This document shows, in pieces, positions 22,480-31,781 of a stretch of DNA of 64,000 nt. Position 1 is the first letter of the stretch; each line of letters opens with the position of its first letter. A program made the translations under genes and the position numbers. The notes below the pieces were generated by a model. It did not search any database. It worked only from the letters and a program-made list of their open reading frames with translations, and was not told the DNA's origin. The stretch lies in the sequence record KP869111; one strand, 5' to 3'. The stretch comes from Escherichia coli O157 typing phage 13.

Positions 22480-23028
22480 TTAACGAGCCCATTTGATGAT
22501 TTCTGTAATCAAATCATTACGTTCGCTTGCATTAAATCCTATAACTTTGTTAGCACCATCATGATTAAGTAATTGATACGTTTGGATTTTGTTATGAATT
22601 GCAAACTCTTCAAAATGTGAAATGACTGTATTAAAACCGAATGAAGACAAAGTGATAAGGTCGTCTTCAAAACTTTCAGTCATTTCGTTACGTGTTAAAA
22701 TAATTGTGAACACATCATGGTTTTGGCAAAGACGAACATAATCCTGTTCATAAACGTCAAGAACCGAGTCCGCATCTTGTCGAATACGTCCATAAACCCA
22801 GTTACTAATATATCCACGGTCTAACAGATAAATCTTAGTAGGGTCTAAATAATTCAACATCGTTTCGAAACAGCCAACTTCATTTCGAGACTTAACATCG
22901 AAACGTCCATCAACTGTTCGTTTAGGGAAATCAATCTTTACATATCTTTCACTAATTTCCATTATGTCATTAATGAAAGTTGTTTTACCAGCATTATCCG
23001 GGCCATCTACTAAAATAATTTTAGCCAT
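22480..23028 (-). CDS. P-loop kinase (NMP-kinase / thymidylate-kinase-like fold), substrate unknown
   Basis: 182 aa; Walker A LVDGPDNAGKTTF; GAGGAA SD; no T4 counterpart recognised at this position. Confidence 0.5.
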   Translation of the reverse strand: MAKIILVDGPDNAGKTTFINDIMEISERYVKIDFPKRTVDGRFDVKSRNEVGCFETMLNYLDPTKIYLLDRGYISNWVYGRIRQDADSVLDVYEQDYVRLCQNHDVFTIILTRNEMTESFEDDLITLSSFGFNTVISHFEEFAIHNKIQTYQLLNHDGANKVIGFNASERNDLITEIIKWAR

Positions 23029-23029
23029 T

Positions 23030-23929
23030 TTATTCCTCGATTACGACATCTTCATATTTAGGTATATTATACGGTGAAGAAATTAAAGCATTAAAGTAGA
23101 TGAACTCACCAAGACCTGGATGAAATACTTCTTCAGGATTTTCGAAATATTGAATCTTCGGACGTCCTTTAAGAATTTGATAGTACTCAGTTTTAGTTGG
23201 TTTAAAAATTCGAATCAACGCTTCTTCAGGATACTTATTTCTGTCGAAGCTATTATTTGGATCGGTTATATAAAGCGGTTGACCTAATTGAATTGCGCAT
23301 TCAACAACTTGTTCAAAACGATAGCATGGGTCACTAATTCGAAATGGATGAAAAATACCATCTAGATGAATAGGAGCCAAATCACCTACAAGACGCTGCA
23401 TGATGGAAGGACGTATAACTTTCTGCGTTACGATAATCTTATTACCATCTGCACCTGCGTTAACCAGCACTTCTTTTTGACGTTCATTCAACACAGTAGT
23501 TTGAAGTGAACGATTAACCGACAACATATCAGTTTTTAAGAATTCGTCAATATAAAAACGTGGTTTATTAGGGTCTGCAGTGATATTGAAATTGAATTCC
23601 ACATCAAAAGCGCCGTCATATCCAGTGATATCTGTGATTAAAAAATCACAATCATAATAAGCAATTAATGAATCAACAACAAATTCATTTTCAGACCAGA
23701 AATATTTACGAGTGTTATACGCGTTATCTTTATACCATAATGGAACAAACTTAAATTCTGGAAAAAGACGTTCGCATTCTTTAATATCAGATGCATTACG
23801 TGGATATGTAATCACATCACCCGGATTAGCACGGTGCAAATGAAGTTGGAAGTTGCCATCCTTAAGGATAGCATACTGTCCAGTTTCATAAGACCGCATA
23901 CTCAAGATTGGTACGCGGAAAATAGCCAT
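23030..23929 (-). CDS. hypothetical protein, possible second glycosyltransferase (beta-gt position)
   Basis: 299 aa; C-terminal EQVVECAIQLGQPLYI loosely resembles GT-B EA..G.P(V/L) motif; TAATG overlap with upstream gene. Confidence 0.45.
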   Translation of the reverse strand: MAIFRVPILSMRSYETGQYAILKDGNFQLHLHRANPGDVITYPRNASDIKECERLFPEFKFVPLWYKDNAYNTRKYFWSENEFVVDSLIAYYDCDFLITDITGYDGAFDVEFNFNITADPNKPRFYIDEFLKTDMLSVNRSLQTTVLNERQKEVLVNAGADGNKIIVTQKVIRPSIMQRLVGDLAPIHLDGIFHPFRISDPCYRFEQVVECAIQLGQPLYITDPNNSFDRNKYPEEALIRIFKPTKTEYYQILKGRPKIQYFENPEEVFHPGLGEFIYFNALISSPYNIPKYEDVVIEE

Positions 23930-24645
23930 TAGTCAAGGAATCCTTTAACATAATCAAAATCACGTTCAAACACATGGGCACTTACCATGGTATGAGTATA
24001 ATCACCAACTTCTACCCCACATTCGTTAGCGATATAATGAAGTAATTTTCCTTGGAGATAAAAATCCAACTGCATAACAACAGCACAGTTCTGAGAACGC
24101 ATATGACAGTGGGTATAAAGCTTACCATCACGAATATAATAAGTCACTGAGTCAGTACATGGATATTCAAGCGTTTCGTCCGAATCAAGCAAAGCCTGAT
24201 CAGAACTTTCTAGAATTTGGAACACAACTCTTCGAGAGTTAGGCTTCTCTTTAAGTTCTTTTAGAAGAGCTGGTAATTGGGCCGCAATGCGAGGACCATA
24301 GAAAGTGTTGAAGTTCGCCGGCAAAACATCTGATTTTGGTTTAGAAATAAATTTAGCGACATTAGGATATGCCTTAAACGCTTCTTCTGCGTTGGTACCA
24401 CCAGAAATCATAAACTTCCAGAAGTCTTCGGCATATTCATAAGAGATGCGGTTAATACGTGGGTCGGTCATTTTGAATGATGATGGAGTGTCAACAACTA
24501 CTGTCATAGACCCAATTTCATTACAACGTCCAATACGAGAATCAGTTACGAATTCCGGGTTTTCTAAAATTTCACGATTGACTGCTTTAAATGCGGTTTG
24601 AAAATCTGCGGCTTTGATATATTTCATTGTGTTATGTTTTCCCAT
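23929..24645 (-). CDS. pyrimidine hydroxymethylase of thymidylate synthase superfamily (dCMP hydroxymethylase, gene 42-like but divergent)
   Basis: 238 aa; NSRRVVFQI, YPCTDSVTYYIRDGKL (catalytic Cys), MRSQNC, SAHVFERDF align to T4 gp42 / TS motifs; GAGGT SD. Confidence 0.6.
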   Translation of the reverse strand: MGKHNTMKYIKAADFQTAFKAVNREILENPEFVTDSRIGRCNEIGSMTVVVDTPSSFKMTDPRINRISYEYAEDFWKFMISGGTNAEEAFKAYPNVAKFISKPKSDVLPANFNTFYGPRIAAQLPALLKELKEKPNSRRVVFQILESSDQALLDSDETLEYPCTDSVTYYIRDGKLYTHCHMRSQNCAVVMQLDFYLQGKLLHYIANECGVEVGDYTHTMVSAHVFERDFDYVKGFLD

Positions 24646-24687
24646 GTTTACCTCAATACAATTTATTATATACTCAATTCGTAAAGC

Positions 24688-24927
24688 TTATTTGAATTTC
24701 TTGACAATGTTGATATAACGTAAAGCTTCAGCATCGATACTTCCAAGAACACTATGAAGAAATGCATCAGCGTAGTATTCCAATTGAACAGGTTCTTTAA
24801 TCACTTTAGCCGCTTTAGTTTCAAACAGGCCCATCAGGGCCTTTTTAAGAATTTGTTCGTTGCTGTTAATTTTCATAGTCAAAATCTCTTCATTAAGTTG
24901 GTGGTTAAAAGTTTTTCTAGAAATCAT
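24688..24927 (-). CDS. small acidic protein (weak carrier-protein-like LGSID motif)
   Basis: 79-aa ORF; ATGA overlap with upstream gene. Confidence 0.4.
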   Translation of the reverse strand: MISRKTFNHQLNEEILTMKINSNEQILKKALMGLFETKAAKVIKEPVQLEYYADAFLHSVLGSIDAEALRYINIVKKFK

Positions 24928-26084
24928 TCCGGGTACCTCAAAGCGTCATCAGAGTTAGTTATATCAATAATAGATATAGAGTTTTCTGCTAACCCGTTTT
25001 TAGATAATTGACGTTTATAATATCTTTCACAATATGTACACGTCGTCCCGCAGATTTCATTAGCACAATCGAAATCTGGATGTCTGAACCACCTTTTTTC
25101 TAAAAAGCCATCTAACAAAGAGGTTTCAATATTTACTGTATGTGAAAACTCAGTTTCGTTTTCAAGAGTGAAAATAGTCTCTAAAGGCTTCCACAGTTCT
25201 AACAAATTACCTTCAAACTTTTCAGAAGCGTATGCTTCAAGAACTTTCAAAATGTAGTCTGTGCTACCTGTACGTCCTGAAACTTTGAATTGAGTGATAC
25301 CAATATCATTATAAAGTTTCAAATCTTGAGGACGAACAAAACGAGTTCTCAACCAGTTAAATGGGTCTGTATCACGAGCTTTAATACAGTGCTGCATAGG
25401 ATATCCGTTTAAGGATTTAGCATCATCAGCTGTAACATCAGTACTATGGAAAATATAGCAAGAGTCACGATAGCTACAATGTGTTGTATACCCTTTACCA
25501 GCATTAGAACAGAACTCATTTACAAGAACTTCAAATATTATATTGTTCTTATTGCAAAACTCTGCTGCACGCTTCAGGAAAGAAACTGAACGGTTCTTAT
25601 GAATTCCACAGCAGACCTTTTTGATATTATACTGGTCATGCAAGTATTTGATTTGAGTTACAGCATCGACATGTAGAATTGTTGAAACTTCAATCTCAAT
25701 GTCTTTATTGACTTCACGAACAATTTCCATAACAACAGGGTTAGCGATAGTAATACGCCATACGCCTATTGACCAAAGATACTGAACATAATCCTGAATA
25801 GCTTTCTTCTTCCACCCAACTAGTTCTCTTTTTGAACCAGGATTTATCGTGTTGAGTGTATAGTTAAAGCAAATACCTAATTCGTTACAACGTTTAACGT
25901 AATCTTCTAACATCTTTTTGTCAACGTCAGGAAGCCTAAAATCAGGTCTGGCTGCTACAAAAGCCATTTCTCTTGTAGAGCCGTATACTTCGTTTATCAA
26001 GCTATTAGGATAAGTTTTATTGAGCTCTACGATTTTATCAAGAAGAGCTAAATCAAAATTCGTTCCAATTTTAAAAGTATTCAT
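24924..26084 (-). CDS. Cys-rich protein of uncertain family (possible Fe-S enzyme; peptidase-U32-like or radical-SAM-like features)
   Basis: Track M1 is GTG; ATG at MNTFKIG; Cys clusters EFCSNAGKGYTTHCSYRDSC and C-terminal CANEICGTTCTYC (CxxxCxYC spacing). Confidence 0.45.
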   Translation of the reverse strand: MNTFKIGTNFDLALLDKIVELNKTYPNSLINEVYGSTREMAFVAARPDFRLPDVDKKMLEDYVKRCNELGICFNYTLNTINPGSKRELVGWKKKAIQDYVQYLWSIGVWRITIANPVVMEIVREVNKDIEIEVSTILHVDAVTQIKYLHDQYNIKKVCCGIHKNRSVSFLKRAAEFCNKNNIIFEVLVNEFCSNAGKGYTTHCSYRDSCYIFHSTDVTADDAKSLNGYPMQHCIKARDTDPFNWLRTRFVRPQDLKLYNDIGITQFKVSGRTGSTDYILKVLEAYASEKFEGNLLELWKPLETIFTLENETEFSHTVNIETSLLDGFLEKRWFRHPDFDCANEICGTTCTYCERYYKRQLSKNGLAENSISIIDITNSDDALRYPE

Positions 26085-26140
26085 TTTTTTGCATCTCACG
26101 TTAATTGATGCGATGGTTTTTGCAGGTCTTACTTAAATTA

Positions 26141-26527
26141 TTATAGATTCGGTTTATATGATTTAAATGTTTCGAATTCGCCTTTATTCATAAGAGCTTT
26201 GAATTCGTCAGGACGCATAGCTTTGTCGTCGATAATCCAATCATATACTGGTTTATGTGTTAGCAAATTATGGTACTTCAAACCAATGTTTTCCAAGTTC
26301 TGAATCAGACTTGGGAGAATGTCAATTGCTATACGACCAGGACCTACTGACTTCATACCGCGAGCAGTGTAAAGCGTTATGGTATGCCCTGCATCATACA
26401 GGGCATTAATAGCAGTCACCATTTCGACGTCTGGTTTGAAGTTCACGTAATCACGATTGTTATTCCACTCTGTTATACAATCATCGACATCAAAACAAAG
26501 ATTAAGCATGTTTTCTACACGGTGCAT
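26141..26527 (-). CDS. HAD-superfamily-like small phosphatase
   Basis: FDVDDC (motif I-like DxD), conserved K, IIDD (motif IV-like); start at ATG overlapping upstream stop. Confidence 0.5.
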   Translation of the reverse strand: MHRVENMLNLCFDVDDCITEWNNNRDYVNFKPDVEMVTAINALYDAGHTITLYTARGMKSVGPGRIAIDILPSLIQNLENIGLKYHNLLTHKPVYDWIIDDKAMRPDEFKALMNKGEFETFKSYKPNL

Positions 26528-28212
26528 TAGATTCGTTCCCATTGATGAGTGATATCGCCACCGATTGGACGATAAGAAACACCAGTTTCTTTATCAGTTA
26601 GTACCCATTTACCAGGATTTTTTGTAATCAGAGTAGCCGTTACAGGTTCTGCTACGTCATAACTAATAGAGCCGTCCTGAAGTACACGGCCCATGTTACG
26701 TAATTGCTTAGTCAGAAGTTCCATACCTTTATAATATGCGGCTACCGCTTTAAGTGGATTATTCTTGAAATAACCACCTAATGCAATCCAGATAATTGCT
26801 ACAGCCAAATGATGATACTCGTTAAACGAACTCATCTTTCCATATTTGTAAACTAATGGATTGATGTTAATAGTCACATTACAAGTTGTTTCGTCAATAG
26901 TAAACTGTCCCCAGGTCGGATTAGCGTTGAATTCATCATAACCTGAAACAGCATAAAGCACTTTAGCTTCATCATACAATTTTGGCCCGTAAATCTTGGT
27001 TTCGCCAAAATATCCACGAGGGTCGATAAACTTGACTTCGCCGTTATCAGTAATCATAGTATTACTGAAGTTCGGGTCACCGTGAATAACAGAGTACTGT
27101 CCCTGAGAACGGGTATGATAACGAATAAGATGTTCTAAAGCTTGCTTCAGCATTGGCTTCAGACGTCCAATCTTAGTGTAGTTCACGTGTGTGATTTTAC
27201 CAAATGAATCAATCAATGGCTGAATGCTTTCACAACGATCAATAACTTTCGTATAGAACTCTTTAGTGAAATCACGGCGAACAGTTTCAGGACTTACAAA
27301 ATAAGTGTCTGTGCTGAATTTCAGTGCATCTAAAATTGCATCAACAATTTGTGGACGAGCAAGACTTGATTTGGATTTAATATATTCAAATGCTGGCTTA
27401 CCTTTAATACGTTCCATTTCAAAATTATTTTCATTTACCGAAACTAACTGAGGAACTGAATCTGATTTCACTTTCAAATACCATGAAATCTCATCTTTTT
27501 GAAGAGCTCGACCTTGTTCGGTTAACGCGAATTTAGTTACAGTTTCTTCGCCAATTTCAACTGCATTAAAACTACGATTAAGTTCACGAACTTCATGAGC
27601 TTTTTCAAGTTTAGGCATATCACCTAAATCAATTAGATTCATAAGCTCTGATTTATTGAATGCACTGCCGTAAAGGAATTCTACGAAATCACGTCCTTTG
27701 CAGTATTCATGAATTTCCTCATCAGTAGAACCCATGTAGAATTCCCAGTCTTTGAACTGATAAATTCCTACAACATTACCGCCTGTTGAACCTACGTTAG
27801 TGATATTTTCACCATCGAAATTATATCGACATTCATCACCCTTAACATAGATTGCGTTAACATTCCAAGACCATGAACCAAAATCAGGAATAATATCACA
27901 CCAGTTAACAATTACGTTATGGCCATCTAAATCTTTGTATAATTTAGCAAGAGCATAAGCAGAACCATACGCTTCATCAACTGTACGAATAGTCACATTG
28001 AACCCTTCTTGCTCGCAATAAGCTCGAACAGTTTCAGCAAATTTTGAATGAACTACTACAATAATTTCATCTGCGCCAAGGTCAGAATAAATTGTATACA
28101 AATTGCTCAGAATAGTGTCTTGTTTATAGTTAACAAGAACTTTTGGAATATGATGCGTTATTGGATACAAACGAGTTGCCAGTCCAGCACCAAGAATAAC
28201 AGCTTTTTTCAT
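26527..28212 (-). CDS. bifunctional sugar-1-phosphate nucleotidyltransferase (N-term) / small-molecule kinase of APH-choline-kinase fold (C-term)
   Basis: 561 aa; N-terminal ILGAGLATRLYPIT (RmlA/GlmU-like); C-terminal HGDPNFSNTMI...IDP (Brenner kinase motif); GAGGA SD. Confidence 0.65.
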   Translation of the reverse strand: MKKAVILGAGLATRLYPITHHIPKVLVNYKQDTILSNLYTIYSDLGADEIIVVVHSKFAETVRAYCEQEGFNVTIRTVDEAYGSAYALAKLYKDLDGHNVIVNWCDIIPDFGSWSWNVNAIYVKGDECRYNFDGENITNVGSTGGNVVGIYQFKDWEFYMGSTDEEIHEYCKGRDFVEFLYGSAFNKSELMNLIDLGDMPKLEKAHEVRELNRSFNAVEIGEETVTKFALTEQGRALQKDEISWYLKVKSDSVPQLVSVNENNFEMERIKGKPAFEYIKSKSSLARPQIVDAILDALKFSTDTYFVSPETVRRDFTKEFYTKVIDRCESIQPLIDSFGKITHVNYTKIGRLKPMLKQALEHLIRYHTRSQGQYSVIHGDPNFSNTMITDNGEVKFIDPRGYFGETKIYGPKLYDEAKVLYAVSGYDEFNANPTWGQFTIDETTCNVTININPLVYKYGKMSSFNEYHHLAVAIIWIALGGYFKNNPLKAVAAYYKGMELLTKQLRNMGRVLQDGSISYDVAEPVTATLITKNPGKWVLTDKETGVSYRPIGGDITHQWERI

Positions 28213-28253
28213 GTTGTGGTCCTCATTGGTAAGTAGGTGTATTGTACACTATT

Positions 28254-28397
28254 CTAGTTAAAGCATTCATACTTTGCTTGTAGTCCAATCATAATCCATC
28301 CAATTACAAGTGTTGGAATCATTACTGGAGCCGTTAAGCTCCAGTAGATAGTCATGACAAGCATCAATAGTAAAAGTCCTATTGTTATTGCTTTCAT
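28254..28397 (-). CDS. small hydrophobic membrane protein (47 aa)
   Basis: Own translation MKAITIGLLLLMLVMTIYW...; ATG overlaps SIS-gene stop (ATGA); not in ORF track. Confidence 0.4.
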   Translation of the reverse strand: MKAITIGLLLLMLVMTIYWSLTAPVMIPTLVIGWIMIGLQAKYECFN

Positions 28398-29029
28398 TGT
28401 TCGCCTCGTAACATGGCACCTAGTGCACCGCCTGGATGGAACTTAAGAAAGTCATTAGAGGTAAATCCACGTTCAGACGAAAGGTTGATAGCAAACGTAT
28501 CGATAAGCGCTAACAACAATGTAGTGGACATAGTCGGAGCCAGAGAATTCTCATCAACCTCTACCGCGATGCCTGTACAGAAAGAGTAATCAAAAAGGGC
28601 TTCATTTTCTTGCGGAATGTCTGGGTTACAATGCAACAGAATCTGTTTGACATTTGGACGAATCATTTTAAGATGCTTAGCCACGCCTATCATTTCTTCA
28701 GTCTTACCAGAACGACTAATATGAATCAACACATCATTAGGCGCAATGAATCCTGCATCACCGTGAGAATAATGCCCAGTGTTCAAGTACATACTCGGGA
28801 TACCGAGTGAAGCAAATGTCTCAGAAGCTTTAGTTGCAATATTAGCATTCTTACCAACACCTGTAATAATTACTCGGCTTTCATAATTACTAAGTCCAGG
28901 GCGTCGAAGAGTTTCTAGAATAGCATTATAACGAGCAGGGTTTTGACTAATTACTTTGGCCATAGCGGCCAAAGAAGAAGCTTGTTTTATGATTGCGTCA
29001 ATAGCGATAGTAATAGGAGTAGTTTTCAT
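28394..29029 (-). CDS. SIS-domain sugar-phosphate isomerase (arabinose-5-phosphate isomerase KpsF/GutQ-like, no CBS domains)
   Basis: 211 aa; ITGVGKNANIATK...HGDAGFIAPNDVLIHISRSGKTEE...APTMSTT...HPGGALG match the API/SIS signature. Confidence 0.7.
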   Translation of the reverse strand: MKTTPITIAIDAIIKQASSLAAMAKVISQNPARYNAILETLRRPGLSNYESRVIITGVGKNANIATKASETFASLGIPSMYLNTGHYSHGDAGFIAPNDVLIHISRSGKTEEMIGVAKHLKMIRPNVKQILLHCNPDIPQENEALFDYSFCTGIAVEVDENSLAPTMSTTLLLALIDTFAINLSSERGFTSNDFLKFHPGGALGAMLRGEQ

Positions 29030-29069
29030 ATTTCTCTCATTTAATTAGTTTACCGTCCATGACATTATA

Positions 29070-31781
29070 TCAAAAATCGAACATATCGAACAGAGATGCT
29101 TTCTTCTCGTAATCGAGTTTCGCTGCTGATGTGAATCCTTCAAGTGGTTTAATAAATGTCTTCTCAAGGAGAACAGTGTAGTCCATCCAATGAAGTACGT
29201 CATCTTTAATTAAATCTGTGATTTCAGTACCAGAAGGCCATGCGATACATTTATCACCGAACGGGTTTCCTTCACGTAAAGGCAGAACATATACTTTTTC
29301 ACCTTCTACAACTTGTGGAGCATCAATATTACCTTTGATAGCTCTGTTATATGTCAGAATTCCACGAATATGGAACGGACATTTAGGACCAGGGAATCCA
29401 CCTACATCATATTTAGCAATGTTATTCGCAGAAGATACCGACGCGATGCTAATATAATTCAATTGACGGAATTCTTTTTCAAACTCTTTAAAATATTCTT
29501 GTAATGATTCTTCACCTTCTTGAAGCATACGACGAATACATTCTTTAAGAGCTTTCTGTACTGCTTTAGGGGTCGAAGATTTCTGAGTCTCTAGACCCAT
29601 GATTTTGAGTTTAGGCTCAGCGTAACGAGTACCTTCCATATCCCACACGTTTAATGCGTAACGTTTCTTACCAGTCCAGAATCCACCAATACCTTTAGAA
29701 CCGAGCGGAGGACCAGCGATAGCTTCTCGGTCCATGAACATTAAGTGTTGTTTATTGTTCATGTATTCACACATTTCACGGAAACCTCTATCAATAGCAG
29801 GTTCCATACGTTCACGAGCGAACTTATCTAAGAAGTCTACCCAATGGTTGGTATCACGGAATTTAGATTCACCAACCTTATCGATAATTTTATCAGCAGA
29901 TACGTAAATAGAGTCTGTATCACCATAAAGAACGAAAGCTTCACCTTCTGTACCACAAACTTCGTTCAGATATTCATTAACTTTACGTTCAATCCACTGT
30001 AAAGCCATTTGACCAAATGTTGTGATTGCAGTAGCATTACGCAAATCGTAATAACGGAACCAAACGTTGCCAAGTGCACCATAAAGTGAGTTGATAAGCA
30101 ATTTACGGTTAATTTGTGCAGTCATACCTGCAACTTCAGTACGTTGAGCTCTAAACAACATTTCATTAAGAGATTTAGCAGACAACTTTTTAATCTTTTC
30201 TTTAATCTCGTCAGTGAAGTCGAAACGATAATCAACATCTAATGGTTCGTCAACAGAAAGATTAGGATTATGCAACGCCTCTTTAATTATTTCACCATTA
30301 CGTTGAGCCGCAAGCATATAACCTTTATGTTCTTTACGTTGATTAAAGACCTTAGTGATTTCAGTTGGAACTACACCATCACGGTCTTTATAATACATCA
30401 TGCCATTAGGAGAACAACTGTACACATCTGAAGGACGTTCAGCGATTGCGTTAATATAATCATGCAGTGGAGCTACTTTAAACGTTCCTGCTATTGTTTC
30501 CGGGCTAATATTCACTTGGCGAATAATACTTGGATACAGAGATGTAAGGTCGAAACTCATTACATATTTGTATCGATTTGGAATAGGTTCCTTAACAAAA
30601 GCGCCAGGATAAGGTTGAACCGGGTGAGAACGACCTTGTGGAATCACCTTGTTCTGCTCTTTAAGGCTATTAAAAATAATAGCATCCCATGTTTTAATTG
30701 GGCTAAACACAGATTGAATCTGTATCTTAGCATAATAACCCATGTCCAAACTCAAGTTGATGAACTGACGCTTAGCATCAATTTGCAATACACGATACAC
30801 GTCGATAATGTTATAAGAAATATATCGTTGGTGATTGCTTTCACGAAGCTTAGAAATAGGGCCGTCATATTTCAGTTTACCAACGTTCAATTCAAATTCT
30901 GAAATGTAATCTAGAGAATACGACGGTTGATTGGTAAAAGAGAATTTTTTGTAAAGGTCGATATAATCAAGAACAGAGATACCGAACAATGTAATGATTT
31001 CACGAGAACCATACATGTTTTCGATAACTTTAACACGAGTTTTACGATGCGGTGATAAACGTTTCGCAGTAGATTCGCCAAAAATATTCTTGATTCGGTT
31101 ATACACATATGGAATATCAAATGACTCAACGTTCCATCCAGTCAAAATGACAGGAGTTTTCTGTTGCCAGAAGTTGAGATATTCCATCAACAATTCTTTT
31201 TCGTTATCGAACGGCATATAAATGATTTTATCGATAATTTCAGATGGAACTTCATCACCGCCTTGTTCTTGAAGCTTAGCAGCGATTTCAATAGACCATT
31301 CTTCTACATTACCATATGGAGAATTCAATAGATCAAATACGTAGAACCTGTCGTCAATTGAGTCATAATGGGTGATAGCATCAATCGGATGTTTTGCTTG
31401 TGATGGCTCAGGGAACCCATCCGGAGATGTTACTTCGATGTCGAAGTTAGCCACACGAATTTTTGTATGGTCGTATTTGATTTCATAGTTATAAGTGTCA
31501 GACAAATACGCCAATTTGAAATCGTCCATGCCAAGTGCTTCAAGTCCGATATCTTCCATGCGTTTAATCCATTGGGAGGCATCACGCATATTAGCGAACA
31601 ACTTACGAGTACACGGCTTACCGTAGATATCGAAATATTTCGTAGCCTGACTTTCCGGACAATGAGCAAACAGTGATGGTTTATATTCTACTTCACGAGT
31701 ACGTTCACGGCCATTAGAATCGATGTAACGTTCAAAAATTGAATCACCAATCTGTTCAACCGTTAAGTAAAATTCTTTCAT
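29070..31781 (-). CDS. 43: DNA polymerase (family B) with 3'-5' exonuclease
   Basis: 903 aa; exo motifs FDIE, polymerase motifs SLYPS, K...YG, YGDTDS; N-terminus MKEFYLTVEQIGDSIFERYID matches the RB69 gp43 sequence as I recall it. Confidence 0.95.
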   Translation of the reverse strand: MKEFYLTVEQIGDSIFERYIDSNGRERTREVEYKPSLFAHCPESQATKYFDIYGKPCTRKLFANMRDASQWIKRMEDIGLEALGMDDFKLAYLSDTYNYEIKYDHTKIRVANFDIEVTSPDGFPEPSQAKHPIDAITHYDSIDDRFYVFDLLNSPYGNVEEWSIEIAAKLQEQGGDEVPSEIIDKIIYMPFDNEKELLMEYLNFWQQKTPVILTGWNVESFDIPYVYNRIKNIFGESTAKRLSPHRKTRVKVIENMYGSREIITLFGISVLDYIDLYKKFSFTNQPSYSLDYISEFELNVGKLKYDGPISKLRESNHQRYISYNIIDVYRVLQIDAKRQFINLSLDMGYYAKIQIQSVFSPIKTWDAIIFNSLKEQNKVIPQGRSHPVQPYPGAFVKEPIPNRYKYVMSFDLTSLYPSIIRQVNISPETIAGTFKVAPLHDYINAIAERPSDVYSCSPNGMMYYKDRDGVVPTEITKVFNQRKEHKGYMLAAQRNGEIIKEALHNPNLSVDEPLDVDYRFDFTDEIKEKIKKLSAKSLNEMLFRAQRTEVAGMTAQINRKLLINSLYGALGNVWFRYYDLRNATAITTFGQMALQWIERKVNEYLNEVCGTEGEAFVLYGDTDSIYVSADKIIDKVGESKFRDTNHWVDFLDKFARERMEPAIDRGFREMCEYMNNKQHLMFMDREAIAGPPLGSKGIGGFWTGKKRYALNVWDMEGTRYAEPKLKIMGLETQKSSTPKAVQKALKECIRRMLQEGEESLQEYFKEFEKEFRQLNYISIASVSSANNIAKYDVGGFPGPKCPFHIRGILTYNRAIKGNIDAPQVVEGEKVYVLPLREGNPFGDKCIAWPSGTEITDLIKDDVLHWMDYTVLLEKTFIKPLEGFTSAAKLDYEKKASLFDMFDF

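What the first reader, a model, noticed from the sequence alone, without database searches (positions are those of the whole stretch)
26141..29029. Phage-encoded sugar-nucleotide pathway between the hydroxymethylase and gene 43: SIS isomerase, small membrane protein, fused nucleotidyltransferase/kinase, HAD phosphatase
Four translationally coupled genes (ATGA/TAATG overlaps) sit where T4 has imm. The SIS-domain protein matches the arabinose-5-phosphate isomerase signature. The HAD-like protein has phosphatase motifs. The 561-aa protein fuses a sugar-1-P nucleotidyltransferase (GxGxRLxPxT) to an APH/choline-kinase-type kinase (HGDxxxxN). That chain is sufficient for Ru5P to Ara5P to free pentose to pentose-1-P to NDP-pentose. 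In a hydroxymethylcytosine phage the obvious use is a donor for DNA base glycosylation. Arabinosyl-hmC has been reported for RB69-type phages, but the enzymes and the nucleotide carrier have not, to my knowledge, been biochemically defined, so this is a concrete candidate pathway.
Basis: partly seen in the sequence, partly recalled or inferred. Interest (0 to 1): 0.85.

Follow-up and report, generated by a model that had tools for sequence, protein, structure and literature searches.

The report
Known phage UDP-arabinose pathway for DNA
These genes of an RB69-type phage make the activated sugar UDP-arabinose, which decorates the phage's cytosines; this pathway was proposed in 2018 and worked out biochemically by 2025-26, so the finding is correct in outline but not new.

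Summary
The four minus-strand ORFs are real. The window matches E. coli O157 typing phage 3/6 at 100% DNA identity, and its proteins are 98-100% identical to those of RB69.

- **Domain calls:** all confirmed. These are a single-domain arabinose-5-phosphate isomerase with all five KdsD active-site residues, a fused sugar-1-P nucleotidyltransferase plus choline-kinase/APH-like kinase, and a small HAD phosphatase about 98% identical to a solved structure (9iqw).
- **Wrong acceptor base:** the base is 5-hydroxycytosine, not hydroxymethylcytosine. The neighbouring "hydroxymethylase" is a flavin/O2-dependent 5-hydroxy-dCMP synthase.
- **Wrong route:** the published route is Ara5P → Ara-1,5-bisphosphate → Ara-1-P → UDP-arabinofuranose, not via free pentose.
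- **Membrane ORF:** the 47-aa ORF is the homologue of T4 gene 42.1. It also occurs in glucosyl-hmC phages, so it is not pathway-specific.
- **Coupling:** only two of the three junctions overlap.
- **Novelty:** Thomas 2018 proposed these genes. Lee 2026, He 2026 and Mahler 2025 defined the chemistry, so the claim is already known.

A side lead may be new. The adjacent U32 "peptidase" (24924-26099) replaces the thymidylate-synthase-like hydroxylase in many metagenomic phage glycosylation modules. It is repeatedly flanked by chorismate mutase or DAHP synthase. This suggests a prephenate-dependent, O2-independent cytosine hydroxylase.

The parts
28394..29029 (-). Single-domain (SIS only, no CBS pair) D-arabinose-5-phosphate isomerase; equals RB69 gp55. 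Converts ribulose-5-P to arabinose-5-P.
   Evidence: Pfam SIS 1e-10. NCBIfam KpsF/GutQ 2e-32 and KdsD 7e-31. PDB 3etn 2.6e-25, 5uqi and 2xhz. KdsD K59/H88/E111/E152/H193 are conserved as K60/H89/E112/E157/H198. 100% identical to RB69.
28254..28397 (-). 47-aa hydrophobic protein, the homologue of T4 gene 42.1. A conserved T-even backbone gene, probably not part of the sugar pathway.
   Evidence: tblastn finds it in 579 phage records, including T4 (annotated 42.1), T2, RB10 and JS98. Absent from the Acinetobacter phage Kimel cluster. Hydropathy above 1.9. ATGA overlap with the SIS gene.
26527..28212 (-). Bifunctional 561-aa enzyme; equals RB69 gp53:52 and the HY126 AfhE type. The C-terminal APH/choline-kinase-like domain phosphorylates C1 of Ara5P. 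The N-terminal domain is a UDP-arabinofuranose pyrophosphorylase.
26141..26527 (-). Small HAD-superfamily phosphatase; equals RB69 gp51 and the HY126 AfhF type. Removes the 5-phosphate of Araf-1,5-bisphosphate. The longest ORF extends to 26542, but the TAATG start at 26527 is more likely.
   Evidence: PDB 9iqw 1e-86 (about 98% identical) and 1xpj 1.9e-10, with all four HAD motifs aligned. NCBIfam TIGR01689 capsule biosynthesis phosphatase 2e-13. Function taken from the literature.
24924..26099 (-). U32-family Fe-S protein; equals RB69 gp50. Function not established. I propose a prephenate-dependent, O2-independent pyrimidine C5 hydroxylase. Lies outside the finding's coordinates but in the same gene string.
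   Evidence: Pfam Peptidase_U32 7.5e-11. Ten invariant Cys. Best E. coli relative by hhalign is RlhA. Neighbourhood analysis.
24688..24927 (-). 79-aa ORF of unknown function between U32 and the hydroxylase gene. Related phages carry a chorismate mutase gene next to its homologue.
   Evidence: No Pfam or NCBIfam hit. Homologues in L018, L024, L026 and L031.
23929..24645 (-). Thymidylate-synthase-fold 5-hydroxy-dCMP synthase; equals RB69 gp48. It makes the acceptor base.
   Evidence: 99.2% identical to RB69 gp48. About 97% identical to PDB 9iqc/9ir2/9iqu. The activity of RB69 gp48 was shown experimentally.
23030..23929 (-). Putative first DNA arabinosyltransferase; equals RB69 gp46:47. Intact here but frameshifted in the RB69 reference record.
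   Evidence: tblastn matches the two RB69 pieces at 99-100%. Published structural prediction. Conserved beside the hydroxylase gene in L003 and L004.
22480..23028 (-). Thymidylate-kinase-like nucleotide kinase; equals RB69 gp45. Conserved member of the module.
   Evidence: 99.5% identical to RB69 gp45. Published annotation. Weak dTMP-kinase hit.

Best explanation
The region is the sugar-donor half of the arabinosyl-5-hydroxycytosine DNA hypermodification module of Mosigvirus (RB69-type) phages.

Proposed sequence of steps:
1. The SIS protein diverts host ribulose-5-phosphate to D-arabinose-5-phosphate.
2. The C-terminal choline-kinase/APH-like domain of the 561-aa protein phosphorylates the anomeric carbon, giving arabinofuranose-1,5-bisphosphate.
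3. The small HAD phosphatase removes the 5-phosphate.
4. The N-terminal nucleotidyltransferase domain condenses arabinofuranose-1-phosphate with UTP to give UDP-arabinofuranose.
5. Phage glycosyltransferases transfer the sugar onto 5-hydroxycytosine in DNA. One of them is the 299-aa protein at 23030-23929.
6. The 5-hydroxycytosine enters DNA as 5-hydroxy-dCTP, made by the thymidylate-synthase-like enzyme at 23929-24645.

This logic is a five-carbon copy of the GmhA/HldE/GmhB/HddC route to nucleotide-activated heptose.

Shown here: gene structure, folds, catalytic residues, and near-identity to RB69 proteins and to solved structures. Taken from the literature: substrates, reaction order, the UDP carrier and the identity of the base. 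The 47-aa membrane ORF is a bystander (T4 42.1 homologue).
For: - **Identity:** 100% DNA identity to O157 typing phage 3/6 and 98.4% to RB69; proteins 98-100% identical to RB69.
- **Isomerase:** KpsF/GutQ 2e-32, 3etn 2.6e-25, and all five KdsD active-site residues conserved.
- **HAD protein:** 9iqw 1e-86; 1xpj with all four HAD motifs aligned.
- **Gene fusions:** cellular homologues carry HAD, SIS, nucleotidyltransferase and kinase in one 900-950-aa chain. Thomas 2018 partly noted this.
- **Conserved gene order:** SIS, nucleotidyltransferase/kinase, HAD, thymidylate-synthase homologue, glycosyltransferase and kinase appear in the same order in Acinetobacter phage Kimel.
- **Literature:** RB69 DNA carries mono- and di-arabinosyl-5-hydroxycytosine. 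gp48 is a 5hodCMP synthase. UDP-Araf is used by the DLP3 glycosyltransferases in vitro. HY126 AfhE is an Ara5P kinase plus UDP-Ara pyrophosphorylase, and AfhF is a Mg-dependent phosphatase.
- **Genetics:** the Shewanella phage Thanatos homologue TH1_060 is essential for propagation.
Against: - No enzymology exists for this exact phage or for RB69's gp55, gp53:52 and gp51. For RB69 these assignments are computational and rest on analogy with HY126.
- I could not read He et al. 2026 or Mahler et al. 2025, so the reaction order rests on Lee et al.'s description of them.
- Table 1 of Lee et al. still lists the free-arabinose route.
- A June 2026 paper still calls the full Mosigvirus pathway uncharacterised.
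- The window protein's own Pfam kinase hits fall below threshold.
- That 9iqw and 9iqc come from HY126 is my inference from near-identity and adjacent entry codes.
Confidence: 0.9

Rival explanations
1. One reading: the HAD phosphatase first frees arabinose from Ara5P. The kinase then phosphorylates free arabinose at C1, and the nucleotidyltransferase activates it.
For: The closest kinase folds are anomeric or small-molecule kinases that act on unphosphorylated substrates: glucosamine kinase, maltokinase and choline kinase. Table 1 of Lee et al. lists this version.
Against: The text of Lee et al., citing the HY126 biochemistry, gives Ara5P -> Ara-1,5-P2 -> Ara-1-P. The isomerase/kinase/bisphosphate phosphatase/nucleotidyltransferase logic of the heptose pathway is the natural parallel. 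The nucleotidyltransferase profile's best PDB match is the heptose enzyme HddC, at 2.8e-14.
Confidence: 0.07
2. The same enzymes operate, but the nucleotide carrier is not UDP (for example CDP or GDP).
Against: UDP-Araf serves as donor for the related DLP3 arabinosyltransferases in vitro. HY126 AfhE is described as a UDP-D-arabinose pyrophosphorylase.
Confidence: 0.03
3. The genes modify the host envelope (capsule or Kdo-type sugar metabolism) rather than DNA, as the database names 'KpsF' and 'capsule biosynthesis protein' suggest.
For: Database annotations; the TIGR01689 capsule phosphatase hit.
Against: There is no KdsA or KdsB partner. The genes are embedded between the DNA polymerase gene and the base hydroxylase, glycosyltransferase and nucleotide-kinase genes in many phage genera. 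Virion DNA contains arabose-linked cytosine: arabinose was found in RB69 DNA.
Confidence: 0.01

Closest known systems
RB69 gp55 / gp53:52 / gp51 and the phage HY126 Afh pathway (AfhE, AfhF) for UDP-arabinofuranose
   Same: The proteins are 98-100% identical to RB69's. The HAD protein is about 98% identical, and the hydroxylase about 97% identical, to solved structures that are probably from HY126. Gene order and predicted chemistry are the same.
   Different: Only strain-level substitutions. In this window the 561-aa and 299-aa genes are intact, whereas the RB69 reference record splits them through sequencing errors.
Nucleotide-activated heptose pathway GmhA - HldE/HddA - GmhB - HddC
   Same: The four-step logic matches: SIS isomerase, anomeric kinase giving a bisphosphate, HAD phosphatase removing the distal phosphate, then nucleotidyltransferase. 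The nucleotidyltransferase profile's best PDB hit is HddC. Published fold matches of the HAD protein include GmhB.
   Different: The sugar is a pentose rather than a heptose. The kinase has an APH/choline-kinase fold rather than the sugar-kinase folds of HldE or HddA (the latter from my own knowledge). The kinase is fused C-terminally to the nucleotidyltransferase. The product is used on DNA.
AmgK-MurU and LicA-LicC pairs (APH-like kinase plus small nucleotidyltransferase)
   Same: The same two folds work in series. MurU, LicC and LicA are among the best structural matches.
   Different: Those are separate proteins. They act on MurNAc or choline and need no phosphatase step.
T4 hydroxymethylcytosine glucosylation (gp42 plus alpha/beta-glucosyltransferases)
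   Same: The genome position (between genes 43 and uvsX) and the purpose are the same. A thymidylate-synthase-fold enzyme makes the acceptor base and a glycosyltransferase gene follows it.
   Different: T4 uses host UDP-glucose and hmC. This phage must make its own donor and uses 5-hydroxycytosine.
U32-family hydroxylases RlhA (ho5C2501 in 23S rRNA), TrhP (ho5U34 in tRNA) and UbiU/UbiV: relevant to the neighbouring gene at 24924-26099 only
   Same: Pfam U32 domain. Conserved Cys consistent with Fe-S binding. Best E. coli match is RlhA. Chorismate mutase or DAHP synthase genes are adjacent in related phages. RlhA and TrhP need prephenate.
   Different: About 390 aa, with an extra invariant C-terminal CX4CX3CX2C cluster. 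Only two of RlhA's four motif Cys align. The presumed substrate is a deoxynucleotide or DNA rather than RNA or quinone. No experimental data exist.

Membership tests
KpsF/GutQ/KdsD arabinose-5-phosphate isomerase | SIS domain with family-level sequence similarity | tested here: met
   Pfam SIS 1e-10. TIGR00393 2e-32 and KdsD 7e-31, both below the full-length cut-offs because only profile positions 2-153 are covered. PDB 3etn, 5uqi and 2xhz.
KpsF/GutQ/KdsD arabinose-5-phosphate isomerase | Active-site residues K59, H88, E111, E152 and H193 (E. coli KdsD numbering; the residue list is from my own knowledge) | tested here: met
   Aligned with MG1655 KdsD: K60, H89, E112, E157 and H198 are invariant in four sequences.
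KpsF/GutQ/KdsD arabinose-5-phosphate isomerase | C-terminal tandem CBS domains | tested here: not met
   The protein ends just after HPGGALG. It resembles the single-domain isomerases 3etn and 5uqi.
KpsF/GutQ/KdsD arabinose-5-phosphate isomerase | Ru5P <-> Ara5P isomerase activity | not testable with these tools
   Computational only, including for RB69.
Sugar-1-phosphate nucleotidyltransferase (PF00483) | N-terminal G-x-G-(x)-T-R-L-x-P-x-T...P-K signature and the fold | tested here: met
Sugar-1-phosphate nucleotidyltransferase (PF00483) | Nucleotide specificity (UTP) | not testable with these tools
   Literature only.
APH / choline-kinase-like (eukaryotic-like) kinase | Bilobal kinase fold | tested here: met
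APH / choline-kinase-like (eukaryotic-like) kinase | Catalytic residues: beta3 Lys, alphaC Glu, the H-x-D-x4-N loop and the Mg-binding Asp | tested here: met
   K227, E241, D379, N384 and D397 invariant; H377 nearly so.
APH / choline-kinase-like (eukaryotic-like) kinase | Pfam APH (PF01636) hit above threshold for this protein | tested here: not met
   Only Fructosamin_kin at 0.0044 and Seadorna_VP7 at 0.0019, both below cut-off. APH does hit 11 of 35 homologues.
HAD-superfamily phosphatase | Four HAD motifs (DxD, S/T, K, DD) | tested here: met
   D18/D20, T59, K97 and D105/D106 align with 1xpj.
HAD-superfamily phosphatase | Family-level profile hit | tested here: inconclusive
   No Pfam hit. 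TIGR01689 2e-13 but 50 bits against a cut-off of 162. PDB 9iqw 1e-86 and 1xpj 1.9e-10.
Arabinosyl-5-hydroxycytosine module of Straboviridae (Afh type) | Co-located isomerase, kinase/nucleotidyltransferase, phosphatase, thymidylate-synthase-like 5hodCMP synthase, glycosyltransferase and nucleotide kinase | tested here: met
   All are present at 22480-29029. The same set occurs in Kimel; dhabil has it except for the SIS gene.
Arabinosyl-5-hydroxycytosine module of Straboviridae (Afh type) | Virion DNA carries arabinosyl-5-hydroxycytosine | not testable with these tools
   Shown for RB69 and for the Mosigvirus NP, not for this isolate.
U32 prephenate-dependent hydroxylases (neighbouring gene only) | U32 domain | tested here: met
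   Pfam 7.5e-11. Foldseek top hit 5d88, a U32 peptidase.
U32 prephenate-dependent hydroxylases (neighbouring gene only) | Canonical four-Cys Fe-S motif | tested here: inconclusive
   Ten invariant Cys, but only C208 and C214 align with the RlhA motif. hhalign probabilities: RlhA 71%, TrhP 8%, UbiU 5%.
U32 prephenate-dependent hydroxylases (neighbouring gene only) | Prephenate-dependent, O2-independent hydroxylation | not testable with these tools
   Supported only by gene context.

The most novel reading that the evidence does not exclude
The finding itself is not novel. The gene immediately downstream of it may be.

I propose that the U32-family protein at 24924-26099 (RB69 gp50) is a prephenate-dependent, O2-independent Fe-S hydroxylase that makes 5-hydroxycytosine, acting on dCMP or on DNA. 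The accessible literature annotates it as 'peptidase', 'epimerase' or 'sugar or heterocycle reductase'. On this reading it gives enterobacterial phages an anaerobic route to the acceptor base, alongside the published flavin/O2-dependent thymidylate-synthase-like enzyme. The pairing would mirror TrhP/TrhO and UbiU-V/UbiI-H-F.

In many uncultured phages this U32 protein would be the only hydroxylase of the glycosylation module.

Caveat: two key papers (He 2026, Mahler 2025) could not be read, so the idea may already be published there.
Probability: 0.45. Interest if true: 0.75.

Novelty: already known. Interest (0 to 1): 0.2.

Why it matters
For the finding as given, the value is confirmation and correction. 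This window carries the intact, correctly framed version of a published pathway by which a phage builds its own sugar donor to shield its DNA from restriction and CRISPR. The annotation should read 5-hydroxycytosine arabinosylation, not hmC glycosylation.

The side lead matters more. The only demonstrated source of the acceptor base needs molecular oxygen, yet these phages infect gut enterobacteria that often grow without it. If the adjacent U32 protein is an oxygen-independent hydroxylase fed by prephenate, that explains how the modification is made anaerobically. It would also extend the U32 hydroxylase family from RNA and quinones to DNA precursors. Finally, it would explain why some phages carry chorismate mutase and DAHP synthase genes.

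Tried and rejected
- **Papers not held:** He et al. 2026 (Nat Chem Biol) and Mahler et al. 2025 (Cell Host Microbe) are not in the library. Searches for HY126, LC53 and UDP-arabinofuranose led back only to Lee et al..
- **Kinase domain by sequence:** the single-sequence PDB search gave only nucleotidyltransferase hits. The profile search gave only a marginal RIO2 hit.
- **Regulatory signals:** the promoter/terminator scan found no more sites than in shuffled sequence.
- **Membrane ORF:** I considered that the 47-aa protein might be a pathway component, such as a membrane anchor. I rejected this because it is the T4 42.1 homologue and is common in glucosyl-hmC phages.
- **U32 in sugar chemistry:** I considered a sugar-side role for U32, as the literature labels suggest. 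It is disfavoured because six viral loci pair U32 with a glycosyltransferase and a nucleotide kinase with no isomerase or nucleotidyltransferase within 10 kb. Other loci pair it with dCMP deaminase, dNK, NT5C and UDG.
- **U32 versus UbiU and TrhP:** hhalign gave low probabilities.
- **U32 in the PDB:** no sequence-level match was found.
- **The 79-aa ORF:** no family hit, even at E = 1.
- **Literature on U32:** searches linking U32 to phage DNA modification found nothing relevant.
Full report
**What the window is**

Bases 24600-29100 are 100% identical to Escherichia coli O157 typing phages 3 and 6, and 98.4% identical to phage RB69. Both belong to the genus Mosigvirus, family Straboviridae. 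The DNA polymerase ORF upstream (29070-31781) matches the RB69 gene 43 position. At protein level the nine genes from 22480 to 29029 are 97.7-100% identical to RB69 gp45 through gp55.

**Check of the observation**

All four ORFs are on the minus strand at the stated coordinates. From the sequence:
- The SIS gene and the 47-aa gene overlap as ATGA.
- The 561-aa gene and the HAD gene overlap as TAATG. This makes 26527 the likely HAD start (128 aa). It agrees with the RB69 annotation and with the first residues of the 9iqw construct.
- The 47-aa and 561-aa genes are separated by 41 nt with their own GAGGA ribosome-binding site.

So two of the three junctions are coupled, not all of them. A consensus scan found no more promoter-like or terminator-like sites than in shuffled sequence, and no minus-strand terminator inside the cluster.

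**The isomerase**

- The 211-aa protein hits Pfam SIS (1e-10).
- It hits the KpsF/GutQ family (2e-32) and KdsD (7e-31). Only the SIS half of those profiles is matched, so the scores fall below the full-length cut-offs.
- Its best solved relatives are single-domain phosphosugar/arabinose-5-phosphate isomerases: 3etn (2.6e-25), 5uqi and 2xhz.
- Aligned with E. coli KdsD, the residues I know as its active site (K59, H88, E111, E152, H193) are all conserved as K60, H89, E112, E157 and H198.
- The CBS pair of KdsD is absent.

**The 561-aa protein**

- Pfam finds the nucleotidyltransferase domain (1.3e-9) but only sub-threshold kinase hits.
- An alignment of 35 homologues shows an invariant nucleotidyltransferase signature (G10, R14, L15, K24, D106).
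- The same alignment shows a complete kinase catalytic set: K227, E241, D379, N384 and D397, within HGDPNFSN...IDPRG.
- Pfam APH hits 11 of the 35 homologues.
- An AlphaFold2 model is confident (pLDDT 92.8, pTM 0.89).

**The HAD protein**

- Pfam gives nothing.
- The protein matches PDB 9iqw ('capsule biosynthesis protein', 134 aa) at 1e-86 with about 98% identity.
- It matches 1xpj at 1.9e-10, with all four HAD motifs aligned (D18/D20, T59, K97, D105/D106).
- NCBIfam gives the capsule biosynthesis phosphatase subfamily (2e-13).

**The 47-aa protein**

It is strongly hydrophobic. It is the homologue of T4 gene 42.1. tblastn finds it in 579 phage records, including T4, T2, RB10 and JS98, far more than carry the sugar genes. 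In T4 it lies between imm and gene 42, overlapping imm by 4 nt.

- T4 gene order: 43, imm.1, imm, 42.1, 42, beta-gt.
- Window gene order: 43, SIS, 42.1, nucleotidyltransferase/kinase, HAD, U32, 79-aa ORF, thymidylate-synthase homologue, glycosyltransferase, kinase.

The Acinetobacter phage version of the cluster lacks it. It is a backbone gene around which the sugar genes were inserted, not a pathway member.

**Independent support that the three enzymes work together**

Cellular homologues of the 561-aa protein include 890-955-aa chains carrying HAD, SIS, nucleotidyltransferase and kinase, in that order, in one polypeptide. One of them comes from a eukaryotic transcriptome. The order SIS, nucleotidyltransferase/kinase, HAD, thymidylate-synthase homologue, glycosyltransferase, kinase is kept in Acinetobacter phage Kimel. 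The E. coli dhakavirus dhabil keeps everything except the SIS gene and presumably relies on host KdsD or GutQ.

**What is already published**

- **Thomas et al. 2018** (PMC6024577) found arabinose in RB69 DNA. They corrected the ORF053c/052c frameshift to a single 561-aa protein, and noted the Butyrivibrio fusion with a SIS domain. They proposed ORF055c and ORF53_52c as UDP-arabinose genes.
- **Lee et al. 2026** (PMC13326640) showed that RB69 cytosines are mono- and di-arabosylated 5-hydroxycytosine, with the arabinose joined through an ether link. They showed that gp48 is a flavin-associated 5-hydroxy-dCMP synthase that incorporates 18O from O2. They also showed that UDP-Araf is a donor for the related DLP3 transferases in vitro.
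- **The same paper** assigns gp55, gp52:53 and gp51 computationally, by analogy with phage HY126 AfhE and AfhF. AfhE is described as an Ara5P kinase plus UDP-arabinose pyrophosphorylase, and AfhF as a Mg-dependent phosphatase acting on Araf-1,5-P2. These were characterised by He et al. 2026.
- **An independent 2026 paper** confirms the corrected base for RB69 and for the Mosigvirus NP.
- **Shewanella phage Thanatos:** the homologue TH1_060 is essential for propagation.
- **The window's thymidylate-synthase homologue** is about 97% identical to solved structures 9iqc/9ir2/9iqu.

**Verdict on the interpretation**

Four things need correcting:
- The acceptor base is 5-hydroxycytosine, not hmC.
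- The order of steps runs through the bisphosphate, not through free pentose.
- The membrane protein is not part of the pathway.
- The claim that the enzymes and the carrier are undefined is outdated.

The pathway is best seen as a pentose copy of the GmhA/HldE/GmhB/HddC route to activated heptose. That parallel also favours the bisphosphate order. The novelty rating is therefore 'already known'.

**Side lead: the U32 gene (24924-26099), just outside the finding**

It is annotated 'peptidase' in databases and 'sugar or heterocycle reductase' by Lee et al.. It is probably the 'epimerase'. It has a Pfam U32 domain (7.5e-11).

U32 relatives RlhA and TrhP hydroxylate C5 of cytidine and uridine in RNA using prephenate, and TrhP is the oxygen-independent counterpart of TrhO. 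That these enzymes and UbiU/UbiV belong to family U32 is from my own knowledge.

What I found about this U32 protein:
1. **Distribution.** It occurs in 221 cultured phage genomes, always at 80% identity or more. Their hosts are enterobacteria or Shewanella. Acinetobacter is not among the ten most frequent organism names, although 57 Acinetobacter phages carry the 561-aa homologue. E. coli dhakaviruses also lack it.
2. **Conserved cysteines.** Its subfamily has ten invariant cysteines, including a C-terminal CX4CX3CX2C cluster. Its best E. coli relative by profile comparison is RlhA, at 71% probability, with two of the motif cysteines aligned. The fold search gives only the U32 protein 5d88.
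3. **Thymidylate-synthase-fold genes nearby.** Across the 47 IMG/VR loci and 7 metagenome loci examined, such a protein lies within 10 kb of U32 only in the 15 Straboviridae loci and one other. It is absent from the remaining 38 distant loci.
4. **Neighbours in the 39 distant loci.** U32 sits beside a homologue of the RB69 gp46:47 glycosyltransferase in 24 loci, usually immediately upstream. It sits near the nucleotidyltransferase/kinase in 18 loci, SIS in 11, dCMP deaminase in 8, and thymidylate-kinase-like proteins and dUTPases in others.
5. **U32 without sugar genes.** Six loci carry nucleotide kinase, glycosyltransferase and U32 with overlapping stops and starts, and no sugar-nucleotide genes within 10 kb. 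In L039 a TET-associated-glycosyltransferase-like gene follows.
6. **Deoxynucleotide contexts.** Other loci place U32 next to dNK, NT5C, nucleoside deoxyribosyltransferase, UDG and thymidylate kinase.
7. **DAHP synthase.** In 12 distant loci a DAHP synthase lies beside U32 (NF006421 up to 2.6e-70, against about 1e-16 for Kdo8P synthase). In L042, L044, L045 and L046 it is fused to a chorismate mutase domain (CM_2 7.9e-18).
8. **Chorismate mutase in cultured phages.** In 54 cultured Straboviridae a stand-alone type II chorismate mutase gene was found. In those I examined it lies directly between U32 and the 5hodCMP synthase gene. They include Serratia phages LC53 and 92A1, CHI14, Yersinia TG1, Klebsiella, Proteus, Edwardsiella and Shewanella Thanatos phages. 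Pfam CM_2 scores reach 1.7e-11, above threshold.

The window itself has no chorismate mutase gene. Its 79-aa ORF is a different small protein with no family hit.

Chorismate mutase makes prephenate. Taken together, these contexts point to a prephenate-dependent hydroxylase acting on the base side of the pathway. This would be an oxygen-independent alternative to gp48 in enterobacterial phages, and possibly the sole hydroxylase in many uncultured ones.

A rival reading is that U32 plus chorismate mutase modifies phage or host tRNA or rRNA, as TrhP and RlhA do. The consistent placement among glycosyltransferase and deoxynucleotide genes argues against that but does not exclude it.

I found no mention of this idea in the searchable literature. 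Two key papers could not be read, so it may already be published.

**Limits**

No experiment was possible. Substrates, reaction order and the carrier rest on the literature. The attribution of the PDB entries to HY126 is inferred. The neighbourhood counts come from loci that are partly redundant, and from ORF clustering by BLAST.

Noticed in passing
window 24924-26099 (-); loci L005-L011 and L016-L062: The U32-family gene next to the HAD gene takes the place of the thymidylate-synthase-like hydroxylase in many metagenomic phage modules. There it is paired with a glycosyltransferase, a nucleotide kinase, dCMP deaminase or the arabinose genes. It has ten invariant Cys and is absent from the Acinetobacter-phage versions of the cluster. 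It may be an O2-independent cytosine hydroxylase.
   Followed up: yes
L024 11366-11671; L027 11158-11502; L045 7302-8357; L009 11145-11891: Related phages encode chorismate mutase or DAHP synthase right beside the U32 gene. The chorismate mutase is either stand-alone (found in 54 cultured Straboviridae; between U32 and the hydroxylase gene in those examined) or fused to the DAHP synthase. This points to prephenate supply. The window itself lacks a chorismate mutase.
   Followed up: yes
window 24688-24927 (-): A 79-aa ORF between U32 and the hydroxylase gene has no family hit. It has homologues only in some related phages (L018, L024, L026, L031), where a chorismate mutase gene follows it.
   Followed up: partly
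window 26527-28212 and 23030-23929; L001 (RB69 NC_004928): The RB69 reference record splits both the 561-aa gene (ORF052c/053c) and the 299-aa glycosyltransferase gene (ORF046c/047c) by frameshifts. Both are intact in this window, which supports the published view that the splits are sequencing errors.
   Followed up: yes
public records under window 26141-28212: Database names are misleading. The HAD phosphatase is called 'phosphoheptose isomerase' in RefSeq, the 561-aa protein 'GlmU', the U32 protein 'peptidase' or 'collagenase-like protease', and the 5hodCMP synthase 'thymidylate synthase' or 'dCMP hydroxymethylase'.
   Followed up: partly
P0084, P0088, P0089, P0091, P0093, P0095, P0109: Cellular proteins of 890-955 aa fuse HAD, SIS, nucleotidyltransferase and kinase in one chain, including one from a eukaryotic transcriptome. 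Their HAD domain belongs to a different subfamily (beta-phosphoglucomutase-like) from the phage's small HAD. Which glycan they serve is unknown.
   Followed up: partly
L003 (Escherichia phage dhabil, Dhakavirus): This E. coli phage keeps an imm-like gene and 42.1. It has the nucleotidyltransferase/kinase, HAD, kinase, hydroxylase and glycosyltransferase genes but lacks both the SIS isomerase and U32. It presumably depends on host Ara5P.
   Followed up: partly
window 26140-26167 (-): A sigma-70-like site (TTTAAA, 16 nt, TATAAT; 10 of 12 matches) lies at the 3' end of the HAD gene, just upstream of the U32 start. The scan as a whole was no richer than shuffled sequence.
   Followed up: no
L039 11101-11994: A gene with a weak TET-associated glycosyltransferase (TAGT) hit directly follows U32 in an uncultured phage that has no TET/JBP or thymidylate-synthase-fold gene nearby.
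   Followed up: partly
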